Virus record (IMG/VR): IMGVR_UViG_3300037258_000147
Coordinates: 1-64,000 of that record
Reading direction: 5' to 3' (one strand)
DNA from: a virus
DNA length: 64,000 nucleotides
Both the position numbers and the translations under genes were made by a program. The notes under the pieces were generated by a model. It saw only the letters and a list, made by a program, of their open reading frames with translations, searched no databases and had not been told where the DNA came from. This document shows, piece by piece, positions 7,676 through 60,660 of the stretch. Positions within the stretch are counted from its first letter, which is position 1. The number at the start of each line of letters is the position of its first letter.

Positions 7676-10600
7676 TTACCGGTGCTCCAGTCTGATTATC
7701 GTACCAATTTTGTCCGTCATTCGAGCCAACGCGGTGACCCGTTTGTGCGTGAGTCGCGGTGTACAAATACGCAGCCTCTCTTTGAACAGCCGGAGGAATA
7801 TAAGACTGTGGCCCCGGCGCTGATCCGGGTATCATTCGAATAAACTTCTGAAATACTGGGTCTTTGGACCTTTCTTCTGGGGTTTCCTCTTTTTTTGCTT
7901 TAGTCAAGTATCGTTTTTGAGTTTTTATAGTTAGAGGAATTAAGGCTGCTTTCTCCGACGGATTAGCTAAATCCAGCATCTGAAGATACTGGGTTGCGGG
8001 CAAGCGAGAGGCTCGGCTGTACAGCAAAGCGATGTCGGGGGTCTTTCCTTGAGTGGACTTTACGTTATCTTGAATTTTCTTAAGTTCCGATTCCCGTAGT
8101 TGGTCCGTTTGGTAAGTTAACTTGTAAAGGTCGGGCCACGACAACTCTCCAGCCCGAACCTGATCCTCTATACGGAGGACTTGGCGATGTCTGGCTTGGG
8201 CCACCGGGTCCAAAGGTCCGTCCTCGCTATGACTGGAGGCCAAATCTGCCGCGAATTTTTGTGCCGGTGTTGAATAGGTTTGAGCGGTTCCCCCAACAGA
8301 TTTCCACGTTTGTCCTATGTTTCCAACCTCAGGGCCGCTGCCCGACATAGCTTGTCCGGCAGATTGGACCGGGATCGGGGCCATATTACGAAATACATCC
8401 GCCCACAAATCCTCTGGTGCTAGTTTACGACCATACTGGTCTCTTCCTTCAGACAATTCATCTAGTCCCCGAAATGTTGGAGACAAACGTCCCTTAATAA
8501 AACGAACGGGGTCCGAGGCCGCTGAAAGTAGATCGGTTGGTAGAGTTCTGATACCAAAAACCGTTTCCTTACCTTCTTTGTTCTTTACAGCCAGTCCAAA
8601 AGGAGCTTCGTAATGTGGGTTGCCAGTAGTTACTAAATTCAAAACACGTGAAACTCCCCAGAGCCCAAGAGCCATTTTAGCTACTTGGGCACGCCCAATC
8701 CCCCCTTCGTCTTTGTTAAATAATCTGGCACCAGAACGCATCTCTGACTCTAGCCAATCGGGGGCCAACAGCAGTAGCCGCCCCCAGTCCTGGCTCGTAG
8801 CAGCCCGACCCATTGCCCTCCAATTGATTCCACCAAATGTTTCGTTAGCGTGGGTACCTGCGGCTTTTGCTACCCTATCTACTGACCAATCTGGATGAGC
8901 AGATTCATACTGACGATACAACAACTCTATTGCTCTGGATTTCAAAGCCGGTATGTAACGCTTAAATAAAAAATCTTGATACCAGTCCAAAGCATTGGAC
9001 AAAGTTTTCCCGATTAAAGGCACCGACTTGATGATTCCGCCTCCCGCCGACACGCCTTCTGAGTGCTCTTGTAGCGCTTTGTAGTCGGTTCCTAGCGTGG
9101 CTCCGTGTTCTACGGCTTTGCGTAGAATAGTAGGAGAATAAGGATCGGAAGGATCAATTTTCTGCCCGTTCAAAACATCTGGTCCAGTTATGTGAAATGG
9201 ATTTATACCCGTCATAATTCCGCGTAATGCTTCTTGCGCCAAGTGGAAAGGTGACAGACTAAGCAAGGTCTGCTTCAATTTCGTCCCAGCGCCCAACAGA
9301 GCCTTGCCTATTGGATTAGAAGCAATAGCAGATTTTTCCAATCCTAATCTGTTCTGCAAATATTCAGCAAACTCCGGGTGCACACGCACGTCCGAGCGCA
9401 CGAATACCGGCGCTCCGTCAGCCGAGTTGGTGACGAAGTTCCAGCCCTTCATTGCGTTATTATCAAGGCTTATGTAATCTTGCGGGTCCCAAGCGTAAAG
9501 TTTCTTTAATCCGTCATTGAAATCTTTCAGCCCGGAAAAATCCTTATTCCCCAGCATGGACTTTAGATACATGATCTGGGTTCTTAACTTATTGTTTCCT
9601 ACTTCGTCGTATTTTGCATTGGTTCTTCCAGCTTGGTCCTCAAGTCTGTCTATGGCCGTGCCTATATTTCCTGGATTAACATAAGGAGTAATATCTCTTA
9701 TAGTTCCGTCGTCCAAAAATCTTTGCAAATCCCCGGACTTAGTAAGTTGGTCTACCACAGGGTCTGCAATATTTATTCTTCTTACTCTGTTCGGATCGAA
9801 ATACATCCGAGGGTCCTCGCCATTTTGTCCAGAAACCATTTGACCTTGACCAGAAAGAACTACCGCAGGACGGCCATCAGACCCTCTAGGAAACTTGTCT
9901 CTTAAAGTATCAATCAACTGCCGGTTTGCAGCAGCCTTGATTAAAGACGTACGTCCTTGAGCCGTGATTTGCACGGGGTCAAGGAACATTTCTTTCGGAG
10001 ATTTTAAGAGTGCGGTTAAGTTAGAGTCATAAACCCTTTGTCTAGCCATTGAAACATTAGTAGACAGTTTGCCTTGTTTGGCGTCGGACAAAATTACATT
10101 GCCTTGTGGATTAGTGTCTTGATATACACGAGTCATATAATCTTCTATATGTGAGTATAGAAGGTCGTTTGCCGAACCGATTTCGAAGTTCTTGGCCTGC
10201 TGCTCCCCTAAATATTTTGAAGCCGCGAGTTCTTTATCAGACAGTTCTCCGTTTGCTACCCTTCTAAGGGAGTTTAGAACGAGATTCTGGTAGTCTTTGG
10301 AATGATTCTTGAAAACATTCGACTTGATCTGTTCGTCAAGTTGTCCATTTAACGGACGGATTTGCGACTGGTTGAAGGCTACATAAGTGTCTTCTCCAGA
10401 ACCCTCCAGATTATTTTTGTAGACAAGTCCGTCGTAACCCTTGGATTGAAGATAAGATTTGACCTTTTCAAGTTCTTCGTTTTGCGCTTGTTGGAAAGAT
10501 GAAAAAAGTTTGTCTTTGATTTCCTGCTTGGACAGACCCTGTAATCCCTCAGGACCGCCGTAGATTTCTGTTTGCCGGTCGTTTAATCTCTTGGCTAGTT

Positions 10601-53750: not shown

Positions 53751-53826
53751 TGGTGGACCCGGAGGGATTGCAACCCTCAAAACTACATTGCAGGTGTAGT
53801 ATGATCGCATGTTTCATCACGGGCCC
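53751..53826 (-). tRNA. tRNA-Ala(TGC)
   Basis: loop CCTGCAA, G3:U70, CCA end. Confidence 0.85.
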
Positions 53827-54076
53827 GTTTAAATCCAGTATACATTCCATCTTTTGCTAGAAAATGTTCAAGATCGTGGCAATTAGGACACAAAATTTCC
53901 AAATTGGACGGATCATTATTTGCGTGACTACGATCCTTATGGTGAACCTTCAAAATTCCAACTTGTTCATCATATCCGCATCGATTGCATTTCGAGGGAT
54001 AGTTTCTTCTTGCAATTTCCCGATAAGTCCCCTCTGGGGGGGGGGGGGGCGACCACCGAAGCAAGATATCCACCAT
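53783..54076 (-). CDS. HNH endonuclease (possibly N-terminally disrupted)
   Basis: CNRCG...VHHKD...NNDPSNLEILCPNCH; G14 run at 54036-54049. Confidence 0.7.
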   Translation of the reverse strand: MVDILLRWSPPPPPEGTYREIARRNYPSKCNRCGYDEQVGILKVHHKDRSHANNDPSNLEILCPNCHDLEHFLAKDGMYTGFKRARDETCDHTTPAM

Positions 54077-54150
54077 CTGTAGAACTTCTACGCTACAGAA
54101 CGTTCGTCACTCCAGAGTTTAGCATCCTCTGACACTTTCAAAAAGTCCCG

Positions 54151-54375
54151 CTGGTCCTCACCAATACCCGAGTCGAACGGGAAAGCGGGTTTGTCGCAGC
54201 CTACCATTAGAAGACGGTCCAAAGACCGGAGAGATTCGAACTCTCATTTACGACCCACATCAAGCCAGACATCCTATCCACTAGACGACGCTCCGACTCG
54301 GGGACTGTTTACTCGTGTTTGCATCCACGTCAGTCCTTGCTCAGAACGGGATGATTCGAACATCCGTCCTCTGGC
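54151..54375 (-). ncRNA. RNA with two circularly permuted tRNA-like domains (YrlA-like topology)
   Basis: T arm -> loop-closed acceptor stem -> D arm order, twice (54264-54375, 54185-54258), plus a third T-loop hairpin. Confidence 0.65.
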
Positions 54376-54379
54376 ACCT

Positions 54380-54455
54380 TGGAGGGAAGGGAGCGAGTCG
54401 AACGCTCTAAAGACATGATCCACAATCATGCGCCGCACCGTTTGGCTTCCAACCC
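54380..54455 (-). tRNA. tRNA-His(GTG), atypical acceptor
   Basis: loop TTGTGGA; two U.U mismatches in the acceptor stem, U73; CCA. Confidence 0.75.
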
Positions 54456-54674
54456 AATTTTTGTTGTCCATTTTATGGACTAAATTTGAGGACCAGACCG
54501 TTGGACACCTCGTTGCTTATTGCGGTCGGCTTGATCTCTTTTATGCGGAAGCCGAGTGGTAATCTTCCGCAGAGCCAAACTCACGGTGTAAATTTGTCGG
54601 TGCTCTCCCTGGTGTCACACCACTGGTTAGGCAAAAGGTATTAGCTCTGCTACCGGGCAAGGTGTCGCCCATTA

Positions 54675-54745
54675 TGGAGCCGATGTACGGAGTTCAACCG
54701 TCAGGAACTCTTTACAGGAGAGTGCCGCTTGCGAAGCACATCGGC
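54675..54745 (-). tRNA. tRNA-Thr(TGT), non-canonical
   Basis: loop CCTGTAA; 3-nt D loop, bulged T stem; CCA. Confidence 0.7.
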
Positions 54746-54830
54746 TAACTTTTCGGTGGTATCTTCCCTCAAACCCTGATACTAGGTCCCTCATCTGAGT
54801 CCTTGCAGACCCCAGCACCGATGAAATTCG

Positions 54831-54988
54831 AGTGATGACGAATCGGACTTGATACCGATTCCTACTTTCGCGGTTGCGCCGCTACCATGCCACTAGGGAA
54901 TCTCTTAATGTACACTCAGTTCTACCCCGGTAGGAGAAGCCCTAACACCTTCAAAGCTGCACGTCCATCCGTGCGGATCGTCATCACC
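54831..54988 (-). ncRNA. 158-nt tRNA-like RNA with large insertion
   Basis: 10-bp terminal stem, D-like arm GCACG/CGTGC, T-like arm ATCGG/CCGAT; begins just after a promoter. Confidence 0.55.
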
Positions 54989-54994
54989 AAATAC

Positions 54995-55023
54995 ATTGTC
55001 TCACAACTCTAAAAACTTGTCAA
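54995..55023 (-). promoter_or_regulatory. sigma70-type promoter within the tRNA array
   Basis: TTGACA-N17-GACAAT. Confidence 0.6.
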
Positions 55024-55035
55024 CCTAAATTTTGT

Positions 55036-55344
55036 CTAAATCGTATCGTTTTGTTCTAAAGACTCTAACAGCCACAAATCTACAGACAGTTGGGTCCGAT
55101 CTTCTTGGTACCCGATCTCCTGTCCATTTTCTGGAAGCAGTTTTTCCGCCAAGATTAGAGTTGGTTCTATTAAAGAATCTAACCAAGGGTAGTCTGTTCT
55201 GGCCCGATCAAGTTCGGCCATATCCGCTAAAATCAGATTGCCGCTGTCCATTTGTGAAAATATATCAGGAAGAGGCGGCGCTGGTTTTTGCGCTTTGTGG
55301 TGATGGAAGCCGAGGATCACATATAACAAACCTACTGAAATCAT
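55036..55344 (-). CDS. hypothetical membrane-anchored protein
   Basis: AAGGAAG RBS; MISVGLLYVILGF. Confidence 0.5.
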   Translation of the reverse strand: MISVGLLYVILGFHHHKAQKPAPPLPDIFSQMDSGNLILADMAELDRARTDYPWLDSLIEPTLILAEKLLPENGQEIGYQEDRTQLSVDLWLLESLEQNDTI

Positions 55345-55362
55345 AGCTTCCTTTTCAAAGAG

Positions 55363-55434
55363 AGGTCGAAGTCGGAACTGCCCCGACACCGTATCCATAC
55401 CAGGGATACATTCTTCTAGTTAAACTATTCGACC
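55363..55434 (-). tRNA. tRNA-Thr(GGT), no encoded CCA
   Basis: loop CTGGTAT; atypical T loop GGCAGTT. Confidence 0.7.
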
Positions 55435-57713: not shown

Positions 57714-57791
57714 TGGTTGCGGCTCTCGGGAGTTGAACCCGGTATCCCAAGGGTATGAGTCTTGGATGGTCATCCGTTCCACTCAGCCGCA
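57714..57791 (-). tRNA. tRNA-Met(CAT), initiator-like acceptor end
   Basis: loop CTCATAC; ends CCGCAACCA. Confidence 0.75.
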
Positions 57792-60090: not shown

Positions 60091-60660
60091 TTAGATGAGA
60101 TCGTATTTCTTGAGGACAGTTTCTTCCTCTTCAGATAGTTCGATCTCATGTCTGATGTTCAAATCAAGTAGCTTGTCGCTTAGACTTTGCTTGCGCTTGC
60201 GGAGATCAGACACTTCCTTAAGATACGTCGGAATCCATCCTTGCGGAATAGCCCCCGTTGTGAAAGAGTTGGACCGAGGGGAATAGGAATTAACCGGTTG
60301 TTCCTTCTTCAGATCGGCGTGTGCTTCGAATAGCACGTTCTCGTCCGGAGCGAAAGACGAGACGGAAGCAAGAGGCTTCAAAACTGCGGCCAGTTTGTCA
60401 ATATGGGCGACTTCGGAAAGAATCGCCGATACCCCCGCTTCGTGGCTCTCGTTCGAAACCTTCTGCCGGATCGAGTACAATACCGCTAGCAAATATCGGG
60501 TCTTATCCAAAGCCGCTTGGAAAATACTCGCCGCGTGGATAATTGCCAGCTTGGGATCATCGTACTTCCCAATCGATACTTGGGTCGAAATCGAAGTTGA
60601 CCCGATGCTCTCGTTGATCAACAATTGAAGTGCATTTGCTTTTCTCAGCGTTAGTTTCAT
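60091..60660 (-). CDS. coiled-coil protein (DIP1984/DUF6847-like)
   Basis: MKLTLRKANALQ...LRKRKQSLSDKLLDLNIRHEIEL pattern; GGAG RBS. Confidence 0.6.
   Translation of the reverse strand: MKLTLRKANALQLLINESIGSTSISTQVSIGKYDDPKLAIIHAASIFQAALDKTRYLLAVLYSIRQKVSNESHEAGVSAILSEVAHIDKLAAVLKPLASVSSFAPDENVLFEAHADLKKEQPVNSYSPRSNSFTTGAIPQGWIPTYLKEVSDLRKRKQSLSDKLLDLNIRHEIELSEEEETVLKKYDLI

What the first reader, a model, noticed from the sequence alone, without database searches (positions are those of the whole stretch)
54151..54496. Tandem circularly permuted tRNA-like domains fused behind tRNA-His
On the minus strand directly after the His CCA, module 1 (54375-54264) reads GCCAGA, T arm GGATG-TTCGAAT-CATCC, acceptor-like stem CGTTCTGA/TCGGAGCG capped by an internal hairpin, D arm GTCT-AGTGGATA-GGAT, then TCTGGC. 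Module 2 (54258-54185) reads GTCGTA, T arm GAGAG-TTCGAAT-CTCTC, CGGTC-TTTG-GACCG, D-like TTCTAATGGTAGG, TGCGAC. A third T-loop hairpin and ...GGACCA follow. This T -> acceptor -> D order is the topology of bacterial YrlA Y RNAs and of permuted tRNA genes. Two such elbows in one RNA is unusual, and no Ro60/Rsr gene is in the window. Module 1 has Pro-like C1:G72/A73. A 10-bp inverted repeat (54151-54160 / 54487-54496) could enclose the whole unit including tRNA-His. Inference: a multivalent tRNA-elbow mimic, e.g. a decoy for anticodon nucleases or other tRNA-sensing defences, or a permuted tRNA precursor.
Basis: partly seen in the sequence, partly recalled or inferred. Interest (0 to 1): 0.85.

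Follow-up and report, generated by a model that had tools for sequence, protein, structure and literature searches.

The report
Tandem inside-out tRNA mimics in phage
Right after the tRNA-His gene of an uncultured 105-kb phage lies a conserved non-coding RNA made of two "inside-out" tRNA bodies plus a third small hairpin. It is built like the tRNA-like part of bacterial YrlA Y RNAs, but it has no Ro60-docking stem and the phage has no Ro60 gene, so it probably imitates tRNA for some other partner.

Summary
On the minus strand, 4 nt after the tRNA-His CCA, lie two circularly permuted tRNA-like modules: M1 at 54264-54375 and M2 at 54193-54254. Each has a closing anticodon-type stem, a variable region, a T arm, a capped acceptor hairpin and a D arm. 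A third stem holding a T-type hairpin (M3, 54147-54189) follows.

The same tandem element occurs in five other related uncultured phage contigs. Across the six phages, 95% of helix cells pair and 25 of 46 pairs show compensatory double changes. tRNA core positions are kept (U8, A14, GG, and the 15-48 pair switching between G-C and A-U).

Rfam gives no family hit. The only match is a 23-bit tRNA hit that joins M1's D arm to M2's T arm. The 10-bp inverted repeat around tRNA-His is not conserved.

[quoted passage not shown] However, the modules lack the Ro60-binding handle, and the 97%-complete genome has no TROVE, DUF2828 or Ro60-vWA gene. A sister phage carries Ro60 plus three handle-bearing Y RNAs at the head of the same tRNA array, and also this handle-less tandem element.

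My reading is a processed tRNA-body mimic, most likely a decoy with no cleavable ends. Its function is untested.

This scan has already noted handle-bearing, YrlA-like permuted mimics beside Ro60-like genes in other phages. This stretch itself was also noted from another window.

The parts
54380..54455 (-). tRNA-His (GTG) with encoded CCA. The element starts 4 nt after it.
   Evidence: ARAGORN; Rfam tRNA 36.4 bits. tRNA-His also precedes the element in L002, L026 and, with an 80-nt gap, L033.
54264..54375 (-). Module 1: a circularly permuted tRNA-like body. Parts in order: 6-bp closing stem, 4-nt variable region, T arm, 8-bp acceptor stem capped by a 44-nt insert (internal loop GCAA/CCGAG plus a hairpin), D arm.
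   Evidence: Sequence; own descriptor scan; covariation in all four helices; chance 12 of 50,000.
54255..54263 (-). 9-nt single-stranded linker UUGAUGUGG between M1 and M2.
   Evidence: Sequence. Linkers of 6-7 nt sit at the same place in homologs, with different sequences.
54193..54254 (-). Module 2: a minimal permuted tRNA-like body. Parts: 6-bp closing stem, T arm, 5-bp acceptor stem closed by tetraloop UUUG, 3-bp D stem with loop AAUGGU.
   Evidence: chance 93 of 50,000.
54147..54189 (-). Module 3: stem CCCGC/GCGGG enclosing a T-arm-like hairpin CCCG-UUCGACU-CGGG and a 15-nt strand. It is followed by ACUUUUUGAAAGUG (54133-54146).
   Evidence: Present in window, L002 and L028 only. The inner hairpin covaries (CCCG/CGGG, CAGG/CCTG, CCAG/CTGG). 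The outer stem is invariant, so it is uninformative.
54995..55023 (-). Sigma-70-like promoter TTGACA-17-GACAAT with an extended -10 TG. It is a candidate start of the transcription unit that runs through tRNA-Thr(UGU), tRNA-His and the element.
   Evidence: Consensus scan, 10 of 12 matches. This is context only, not evidence of function.

Best explanation
The element is a non-coding RNA gene inside the phage tRNA operon. It is transcribed with tRNA-His. Its ends are set by the processing of its neighbours: 3' maturation of tRNA-His upstream, and in relatives RNase P cleavage at the 5' end of tRNA-Ala 12-14 nt downstream.

Each of its two main modules folds into an L-shaped tRNA body, with T-loop/D-loop elbow, acceptor/T coaxial stack and D arm. 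The chain ends sit where the anticodon loop would be, and the acceptor end is sealed by a loop. The RNA therefore cannot be aminoacylated and cannot decode.

Selection keeps the shape and the tertiary core but lets most stem sequences drift. I therefore infer that it is read by a factor that recognises generic tRNA architecture.

Most likely it acts as a stable, multivalent tRNA-body decoy. It would occupy a host tRNA-binding factor, such as a tRNA-directed defence nuclease or sensor, or a processing or modification enzyme. It offers neither of the usual reactive sites (anticodon loop, free CCA end), so it would be a competitor that is not consumed. It would work without a phage Ro60.

Shown: the anatomy, conservation, covariation, operon context, and absence of Ro60 and of the handle.
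Inferred: expression, processing, stability, the partner and the decoy role.
For: Anatomy at the stated coordinates.

Homologous tandem elements in six related phage contigs: window, L002, L028, L026, L010, L033.

Covariation:
- 95.1% of helix cells paired.
- 25 of 46 pairs with changes on both sides.
- 0 of 500 shuffles reach the observed values.
- Slid controls pair at only 34-53%.
- A structure-blind MAFFT + RNAalifold run recovers the closing, T and D stems.

tRNA tertiary core in 11 modules:
- U8 in 10 of 11.
- A14 in 10 of 11.
- GG in 11 of 11.
- The 15-48 pair is G-C in 3, A-U in 5 and U-A in 1.

Operon context: same strand as 28 ARAGORN tRNAs, 4 nt after the His CCA, and in relatives followed directly by tRNA-Ala.

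No Ro60-type gene in the 97%-complete genome: TROVE, DUF2828, vWA_Ro60 and tblastn with the sister phage's Ro60 are all negative.

No Y-RNA handle: the sister phage's handle-bearing Y RNAs have no match in this genome.

The phage invests heavily in tRNA supply and carries an RNA ligase (PF09414).

Published work shows phage tRNA genes countering tRNA-targeting defences (titles and abstracts of PMC10264068 and PMC11555353, listed).
Against: There are no expression or processing data, and no partner is known.

A decoy without an anticodon loop cannot trap nucleases that read the anticodon.

The closest architectural relatives (YrlA) work with Ro60. The nearest sister phage (G003) encodes Ro60 3.3 kb upstream on the same strand, so a Ro60-linked role is not excluded.

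Only six distinct sequences from one phage clade are known. The main alignment was fitted to the model structure.

Some modules have degenerate arms:
- L010 M1 T stem.
- L010 M2 D arm and T loop.
- L002 M2, with an 8-nt T loop.
Confidence: 0.4

Rival explanations
1. It is a Ro60-linked Y-RNA-type element. The modules are YrlA-like effector domains that work with a Ro60/Rsr protein, supplied by the host in this phage and by the phage itself in G003. They could act as tethers, or as clients or regulators of the Ro60 RNA-surveillance machine.
For: The module topology is the same as the YrlA tRNA-like domain (PMC4201824; structure preprint 10.1101/312249).

G003 encodes a TROVE + vWA_Ro60 protein. 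It lies 3.3 kb upstream of its copy of the element on the same strand, which is inside the 4-kb rule used by Chen et al. G014, another relative, has Ro60 followed directly by a YrlA-like RNA.

M2's acceptor hairpin (CGGTC-TTTG-GACCG) resembles that of the G003 YrlA (CCGGTCC-TTCG-GGGTCGG).
Against: The element has no Ro60-binding handle. The clade's canonical Y RNAs share GGTTACTTC ... CGCTTGTTCC ends, which the tandem modules lack.

Rfam YrlA gives no hit at E <= 10.

This 97%-complete genome has no Ro60-type gene. At the syntenic place it carries an unrelated 189-aa ORF.

G003 keeps three separate handle-bearing Y RNAs besides the tandem element, so the two are not interchangeable.

YrlA D and T stem sequences are conserved (10.1101/312249). 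Here the T stems drift freely.
Confidence: 0.2
2. It is a cis-acting operon element. The compact tRNA-shaped folds serve the tRNA transcript itself. They could block 3' exonucleases after tRNA-His, guide or space RNase P/RNase E processing, or (M3 plus U run) attenuate or terminate transcription.
For: Fixed position between tRNA-His and tRNA-Ala in most homologs. M3 is a GC stem followed by a U run. Only shape is conserved, not sequence.
Against: L010 has the element without tRNA-His.

M3 is missing in three of six homologs. In L002 and L028 the sequence right after M3's U run (4-5 nt away) starts like a tRNA acceptor strand (my reading; ARAGORN calls no tRNA there). If that is a tRNA, M3 is a poor terminator.

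A simple hairpin would do these jobs. Keeping U8, A14, GG, the T loop and the covarying 15-48 pair in two full tRNA cores points to recognition as tRNA.

Other tRNAs in the array sit 1-8 nt apart without such elements.
Confidence: 0.2
3. They are true circularly permuted tRNA genes. Transcripts would be circularised or ligated (the phage has an RNA ligase), and the acceptor cap removed by RNase P and a 3' nuclease, giving working tRNAs.
For: The 3' half precedes the 5' half. M1 in window, L002 and L033 has a 7-8-bp acceptor stem, U at -1, A73 and then GCA, which looks like a decayed CCA (the likeness is my inference). RNA ligase PF09414 is in the genome. ARAGORN finds no Met, Glu or Val tRNA in the window.
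Against: The linkers that would form the anticodon loop differ between homologs: UUGAUGU(GG), UUAAGCU, GAGAAGC, GUAAGU, GUAAGCA. No anticodon is conserved.

Closing stems are 5-6 bp with no loop. M2-type acceptor stems are 3-7 bp with 4-20-nt caps, mostly too short for RNase P.

No bulge-helix-bulge motif is present, and bacteria lack the splicing endonuclease (established knowledge).

Other readers' notes place unusual Met, Glu and Val tRNAs elsewhere in the array (not checked here).
Confidence: 0.03
4. It is a neutral relic: leftovers of tandemly duplicated or rearranged tRNA genes, shuffled by the homing endonucleases in the array, with no function of their own.
For: The array is full of HNH, GIY-YIG and Endo VII-type endonuclease genes. 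An HNH gene sits right after M3. A tandem tRNA duplication is a plausible origin of a permuted unit (inference).
Against: Pairing in the permuted register is kept at 95% through many double changes, across phages whose terminases are only 55-70% identical. The normal register (M1 5' half with M2 3' half) does not pair. It gives only the 23-bit chimeric tRNA hit.
Confidence: 0.03

Closest known systems
YrlA (Y RNA-like A; Rfam RF02553), the tRNA-mimicking Y RNA bound by bacterial and mycobacteriophage Ro60/Rsr (Chen et al. 2014, PMC4201824; Wang et al. 2018, 10.1101/312249)
   Same: - Permuted order: variable region, T arm, capped acceptor-like stem, D arm, with chain ends on the anticodon side.
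- tRNA tertiary core kept, including G15:C48 / A15:U48 switching.
- No free CCA end.
- Found in phages with tRNA arrays.
- In the sister phage G003 the element lies within 4 kb of Ro60 on the same strand.
   Different: - No Ro60-binding handle, and no V stem-loop.
- Two full modules plus a third hairpin in tandem in one unit.
- T stem sequences are not conserved.
- No RF02553 hit at E <= 10.
- This phage has no Ro60-type gene.
- G003 has separate canonical Y RNAs as well.
Circularly permuted tRNA genes of Cyanidioschyzon merolae and some archaea (from my own knowledge: Soma et al. 2007; reviewed in PMC4090602, listed)
   Same: The 3' half is encoded before the 5' half. The acceptor strands are joined by a removable linker. 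A tandem-duplication origin is plausible.
   Different: No anticodon loop can be rebuilt consistently. There is no BHB splice motif. Acceptor stems are short in half of the modules. The setting is bacterial/phage, which lacks the splicing endonuclease.
Two-piece tmRNA from permuted ssrA genes
   Same: A permuted tRNA-like domain, with T arm and acceptor 3' strand before the acceptor 5' strand.
   Different: No tag reading frame, no pseudoknots, and no CCA after the acceptor strand. It has a full D arm, which tmRNA lacks. ARAGORN reports no tmRNA.
Stable non-tRNA RNAs of the phage T4 tRNA cluster (species 1 and 2; recalled from memory, not checked here)
   Same: Small stable RNAs of unknown function, co-transcribed and co-processed with phage tRNAs.
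   Different: No sequence or fold comparison was made here. Permuted topology is not known to me for them.

Membership tests
YrlA / bacterial Y RNA (RF02553) | tRNA-like domain in the order T arm, capped acceptor-like stem, D arm, with ends on the anticodon side | tested here: met
   The definition is from PMC4201824.
YrlA / bacterial Y RNA (RF02553) | Terminal helix formed by the 5' and 3' ends that carries the conserved Ro60/Rsr-binding site (the 'handle') | tested here: not met
   The closing stems are 5-6 bp and abut single-stranded linkers. The clade's own handle motifs are absent from the element and from the whole genome.
YrlA / bacterial Y RNA (RF02553) | Encoded near (within 4 kb, same strand) a Ro60/TROVE gene | tested here: not met
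   No TROVE, DUF2828 or vWA_Ro60 in the 104.7-kb genome, and no tblastn match. The feature is met in the sister phage G003, at 3.3 kb on the same strand.
YrlA / bacterial Y RNA (RF02553) | Score at or above the Rfam gathering threshold (69 bits) | tested here: not met
   No RF02553 hit at E <= 10 in 53800-55400. No hit on the L002 copy at E <= 1 either, while the Ro60-adjacent Y RNA of L002 scores 24.9 bits.
YrlA / bacterial Y RNA (RF02553) | Physical binding to Ro60/Rsr | not testable with these tools
   Needs EMSA or co-immunoprecipitation.
Circularly permuted tRNA gene | 3' half upstream of the 5' half, with complementary acceptor and anticodon-stem strands | tested here: met
Circularly permuted tRNA gene | A 7-nt anticodon loop with a conserved anticodon is restored on joining the ends | tested here: not met
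   The flanking linkers differ in sequence and length between homologs.
Circularly permuted tRNA gene | 7-bp acceptor stem with a discriminator and a CCA, or a CCA-addition site | tested here: inconclusive
   M1 of window, L002 and L033 has 7-8 bp, A73 and then GCA. All other modules have 3-7 bp, and their caps show no discriminator-plus-CCA; L028 M1's CCUAAG is at best a decayed one.
tRNA (RF00005) | Contiguous cloverleaf scoring at or above 29 bits | tested here: not met
   The only hit is 23 bits at 54221-54295. It joins M1's D arm to M2's T arm, with mismatched acceptor and anticodon stems.
tmRNA (one- or two-piece) | tRNA-like domain plus tag reading frame and pseudoknots | tested here: not met
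   ARAGORN finds no tmRNA in the window or genome.

The most novel reading that the evidence does not exclude
A new class of phage counter-defence RNA: handle-less, multivalent 'sealed' tRNA bodies made from the tRNA operon. They would act independently of Ro60 as non-consumable decoys for host immune proteins that dock on the tRNA body. They would have arisen by tandem duplication of a tRNA gene and fixation of the permuted pairing register.
Probability: 0.2. Interest if true: 0.8.

Novelty: new variant of a known kind. Interest (0 to 1): 0.6.

Why it matters
Phage tRNA arrays are now seen as counter-measures to tRNA-cleaving immunity. [quoted passage not shown]

Here that same sealed tRNA body appears stripped of its Ro60 handle, doubled, and placed in the tRNA operon of a phage without Ro60. 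A sister phage keeps Ro60, canonical Y RNAs and this element side by side. That separates the tRNA-mimic module from Ro60 and gives a natural comparison for asking what the module binds.

It also shows that standard tRNA finders and Rfam miss such genes. If the decoy reading holds, it would add RNA mimics to the list of phage anti-defence tools.

Tried and rejected
- **MFE folding.** Folding of the region alone was not informative (z -0.55 and -1.84).
- **Rfam.** Scans at the gathering threshold and at E <= 10 gave no family other than tRNA. The 23-bit tRNA hit is a chimera of M1 and M2.
- **Normal-register reading.** Pairing the M1 5' half, the linker and the M2 3' half as an ordinary tRNA fails. 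The acceptor and anticodon strands do not pair in the window or in L026.
- **Enclosing inverted repeat.** The 10-bp repeat is not conserved.
- **Cultured phages.** BLAST against cultured phages gave only an HNH match. The nearest cultured phage by terminase, Tunturiibacter phage Tunturi_3 (26% identity), has 3 tRNAs and no element.
- **Pattern scans.** Scans of IMG/VR and of metagenome contigs for M1/M2/M3 motifs found only the same contigs or ordinary tRNAs.
- **tRNA-His pattern scan.** It gave 19 loci. The model hits there were the L026 phage again or tandem ordinary tRNAs. My descriptor scan found single handle-bearing permuted modules in unrelated large phages.
- **False positive.** L028:2391-2606 (34 bits) is a false positive on tandem Lys/Arg tRNAs.
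- **Origin of M1.** M1 is not a copy of any tRNA in the window. The best partial likeness is to tRNA-Asp's D arm.
- **'CCAAG' trailer idea.** Only 4 of 28 tRNAs in the window have an AG trailer. The likeness of M1's cap start (A-GCA-AG) to a decayed N73-CCA trailer is therefore only a weak inference.
- **189-aa ORF.** The ORF that replaces Ro60 syntenically has no Pfam or PHROG match and no informative Atlas match.
- **Relatives cut inside the array.** G001, G002 and G015 give no information.

Full report
**Setting.** The window is the first 64 kb of a 104,680-bp IMG/VR phage record that CheckV rates 97% complete. On the minus strand between 50.4 and 59.8 kb, ARAGORN finds 28 tRNA genes, all but one with an encoded CCA. 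Homing-endonuclease genes of HNH, GIY-YIG/T5orf172 and Endo VII type are scattered among them. Portal and terminase genes lie upstream. The nearest cultured phage by terminase is Tunturiibacter phage Tunturi_3 at only 26% identity, so the host is unknown.

**The observation.**
- tRNA-His runs from 54455 to 54380 and ends in CCA.
- After the 4-nt spacer AGGU comes module 1 (M1, 54375-54264). It has a 6-bp closing stem, a 4-nt variable region, a 5-bp T stem with loop TTCGAAT, an 8-bp acceptor stem capped by 44 nt, the linker TC, and a D arm GTCT-AGTGGATA-GGAT. The second strand of the closing stem ends the module.
- A 9-nt linker leads to module 2 (M2, 54254-54193). It has the same order of parts, with a 5-bp acceptor stem closed by UUUG.
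- After AAA comes M3 (54189-54147). A GC stem encloses a T-arm-like hairpin and a 15-nt strand, and a U run follows.

My own descriptor scan of the whole genome finds M1 and M2. It otherwise finds only two weak matches, with long caps and minimal stems. With each T arm held fixed and its flanks shuffled, geometry as good as M1 arises in 12 of 50,000 trials and as good as M2 in 93 of 50,000.

**Known RNA families.** Rfam gives no hit apart from tRNA-His and a 23-bit sub-threshold tRNA match at 54221-54295. That match joins M1's D arm to M2's T arm and has mismatched acceptor and anticodon stems. It is the mirror image of the 'dimeric tRNA' artefact that Chen et al. warn about. ARAGORN reports no tmRNA.

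**Relatives.** Terminase-based retrieval from IMG/VR gave 30 related loci.
- BLAST found a 70%-identical copy of tRNA-His plus the element in contig G003 (L002/L011).
- A covariance model built from the two sequences and my structure then found the element in L028 (three modules), L026 and L010 (two modules), and L033. In L033 my descriptor scan found a second, short module just before the M1-type one.
- One 34-bit hit (L028:2391-2606) lies on tandem Lys/Arg tRNAs and is a false positive.
- The element follows tRNA-His in window, L002, L026 and L033. It directly precedes tRNA-Ala in L026, L010 and L033. In the window an HNH gene has been inserted between the element and tRNA-Ala.
- Further pattern scans of IMG/VR and of metagenome contigs brought only the same phages or ordinary tRNAs.
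- The family as known has six distinct members in one clade of uncultured phages of about 100 kb.

**Covariation on the six-sequence alignment (A5).**
- 95.1% of helix cells form standard pairs.
- 25 of 46 pairs show changes on both sides.
- No shuffle out of 500 reaches any observed measure.
- Sliding the 3' partners by 1-3 columns drops pairing to 34-53%.
- Every helix of M1 and M2 has compensatory pairs. M3's inner hairpin covaries and its outer stem never varies.

That alignment was fitted to the model, so I ran two independent checks.

First, a structure-blind MAFFT alignment of seven modules was folded with RNAalifold. It recovers the closing, T and D stems, with double changes in 8 of 14 pairs.

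Second, I made a segment-by-segment table of 11 modules from coordinates alone:
- 214 of 224 helix cells pair.
- U8 is present in 10 of 11 modules.
- A14 is present in 10 of 11.
- GG in the D loop is present in all 11.
- The 15-48 tertiary pair is G-C in three modules, A-U in five and U-A in one.

The last point is the classical tRNA Levitt-pair switch, which Chen et al. also noted for YrlA. These are true tRNA-shaped folds under selection.

The 10-bp inverted repeat around tRNA-His is not conserved in L002 or L028.

[quoted passage not shown] Three defining YrlA features fail.
- The element has no terminal Ro60-binding helix.
- RF02553 gives no hit.
- The genome has no TROVE, DUF2828 or Ro60-type vWA gene, and no tblastn match to the sister phage's Ro60.

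**The sister phage G003.** G003 encodes a 439-aa TROVE + vWA_Ro60 protein. Three RNAs with shared handle motifs (GGTTACTTC ... CGCTTGTTCC) follow it directly. The first contains a permuted tRNA-like domain and scores weakly on RF02553. Then comes the tRNA array, and 3.3 kb further on the same strand lies the handle-less tandem element.

Another relative, G014, has Ro60 followed by a YrlA-like RNA.

Synteny shows where the window differs. At the place where G003 has Ro60 plus its Y RNAs, the window has an unrelated 189-aa ORF between the same HNH gene and the first tRNA. Canonical Y RNAs and the tandem element therefore coexist in one phage and are distinct. The tandem element persists where Ro60 is absent.

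My scan also found single, handle-bearing permuted modules in unrelated large phages. Two of those phages encode TROVE proteins. Earlier reports of this scan describe similar Ro60-linked cases in other phages.

**How it probably works.** The element is almost certainly co-transcribed with its neighbours. A sigma-70-like promoter lies at 55023-54995. Its ends are probably set by tRNA processing. It has no anticodon loop and no free acceptor end, so it cannot be charged and cannot decode.

Selection preserves the L-shape core but lets stems drift. This contrasts with YrlA, whose D and T stem sequences are conserved. It points to a partner that reads generic tRNA architecture.

I commit, at about 40%, to a Ro60-independent, multivalent tRNA-body decoy or competitor for a host tRNA-binding factor. 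Its sealed ends would make it non-consumable. The rivals are:
- a Ro60-linked role using a host Ro60 (about 20%);
- a cis-acting processing or stability element (about 20%);
- true permuted tRNA genes (about 3%);
- neutral relics (about 3%).

The remainder is something not yet thought of.

A side inference concerns M1. In three phages it has U-1, a 7-8-bp acceptor stem, A73 and then GCA. That looks like a decayed tRNA end. It suggests an origin from a tandem tRNA duplication, and possible opening of the cap by RNase P, as reported for M. smegmatis YrlA. The supporting trailer consensus is weak in this window.

**Verdict.** The YrlA-like topology is right. Membership in YrlA is not met. Function is open. 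I class it as a new variant of a known kind: a handle-less, tandem, operon-embedded tRNA mimic in a phage without Ro60.

Noticed in passing
window 54835-54990 (-), promoter 54995-55023: A promoter-led RNA of about 155 nt with a 9-10-bp terminal stem (GGTGATGACG / CGTCATCAC), a T-arm-like hairpin and a large structured interior. It lies upstream of tRNA-Thr(UGU) and tRNA-His, probably in the same transcription unit as the element. Another reader also noted it.
   Followed up: partly
window 54466-54480: A copy of the genome-wide palindrome GTCC-N7-GGAC (here GTCCATAAAATGGAC) sits 11 nt upstream of tRNA-His. Many further copies showed up in a motif listing of the genome.
   Followed up: no
window 60091-60660 (-): A 189-aa ORF with no Pfam or PHROG match occupies exactly the place where the sister phage G003 has Ro60 plus three Y RNAs, between a shared HNH gene and the first tRNA.
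   Followed up: partly
L002:370-700 (G003) and L066:934-2253: A phage Ro60 (TROVE + vWA_Ro60, 439 aa) is followed by three handle-bearing Y-like RNAs. The first scores 40.7 bits on Rfam tRNA (382-449) and 24.9 bits on YrlA (424-476). It therefore seems to hold both a near-normal tRNA 5' part and a permuted tRNA-like domain.
   Followed up: partly
L023:15070-16700 (G014): A Ro60 homolog (78% identical to G003's) is followed by a terminator-like hairpin, a YrlA-like RNA with an 8-bp capped acceptor, and a second handle-bearing RNA.
   Followed up: partly
L045:1768-1830 and 1899-1971; L049:5510-5582 and 8812-8880; L046:8297-8370 and 10141-10213: Clean single permuted tRNA-like modules of 63-74 nt in unrelated large phage contigs. 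Several have extended flanking stems or Y-RNA-type handle motifs. G006 and G008 encode TROVE proteins. The complete 360-kb G007 does not.
   Followed up: partly
window 54036-54049: A run of 14 C on the minus strand lies inside the 5' part of the HNH endonuclease ORF (53783-54076). It could be a slippage-prone tract or an assembly artefact.
   Followed up: no
G000 79824-80870 (L068:2825-3871): An RNA ligase (PF09414, E 1.6e-15) lies next to the family-A DNA polymerase gene. It fits an RNA-repair capacity in a tRNA-rich phage.
   Followed up: partly
window 57718-57790 (-): A sub-threshold tRNA-like gene (26.4 bits) lies next to tRNA-Asp and is missed by ARAGORN. The array holds several such atypical tRNAs, according to other readers.
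   Followed up: no
L072:4600-4770 (also L073-L077, phage records of about 156-161 kb): A normal-order tRNA-like gene with roughly 20 extra nt in the anticodon region. It was picked up as a false positive of my M1 pattern.
   Followed up: no
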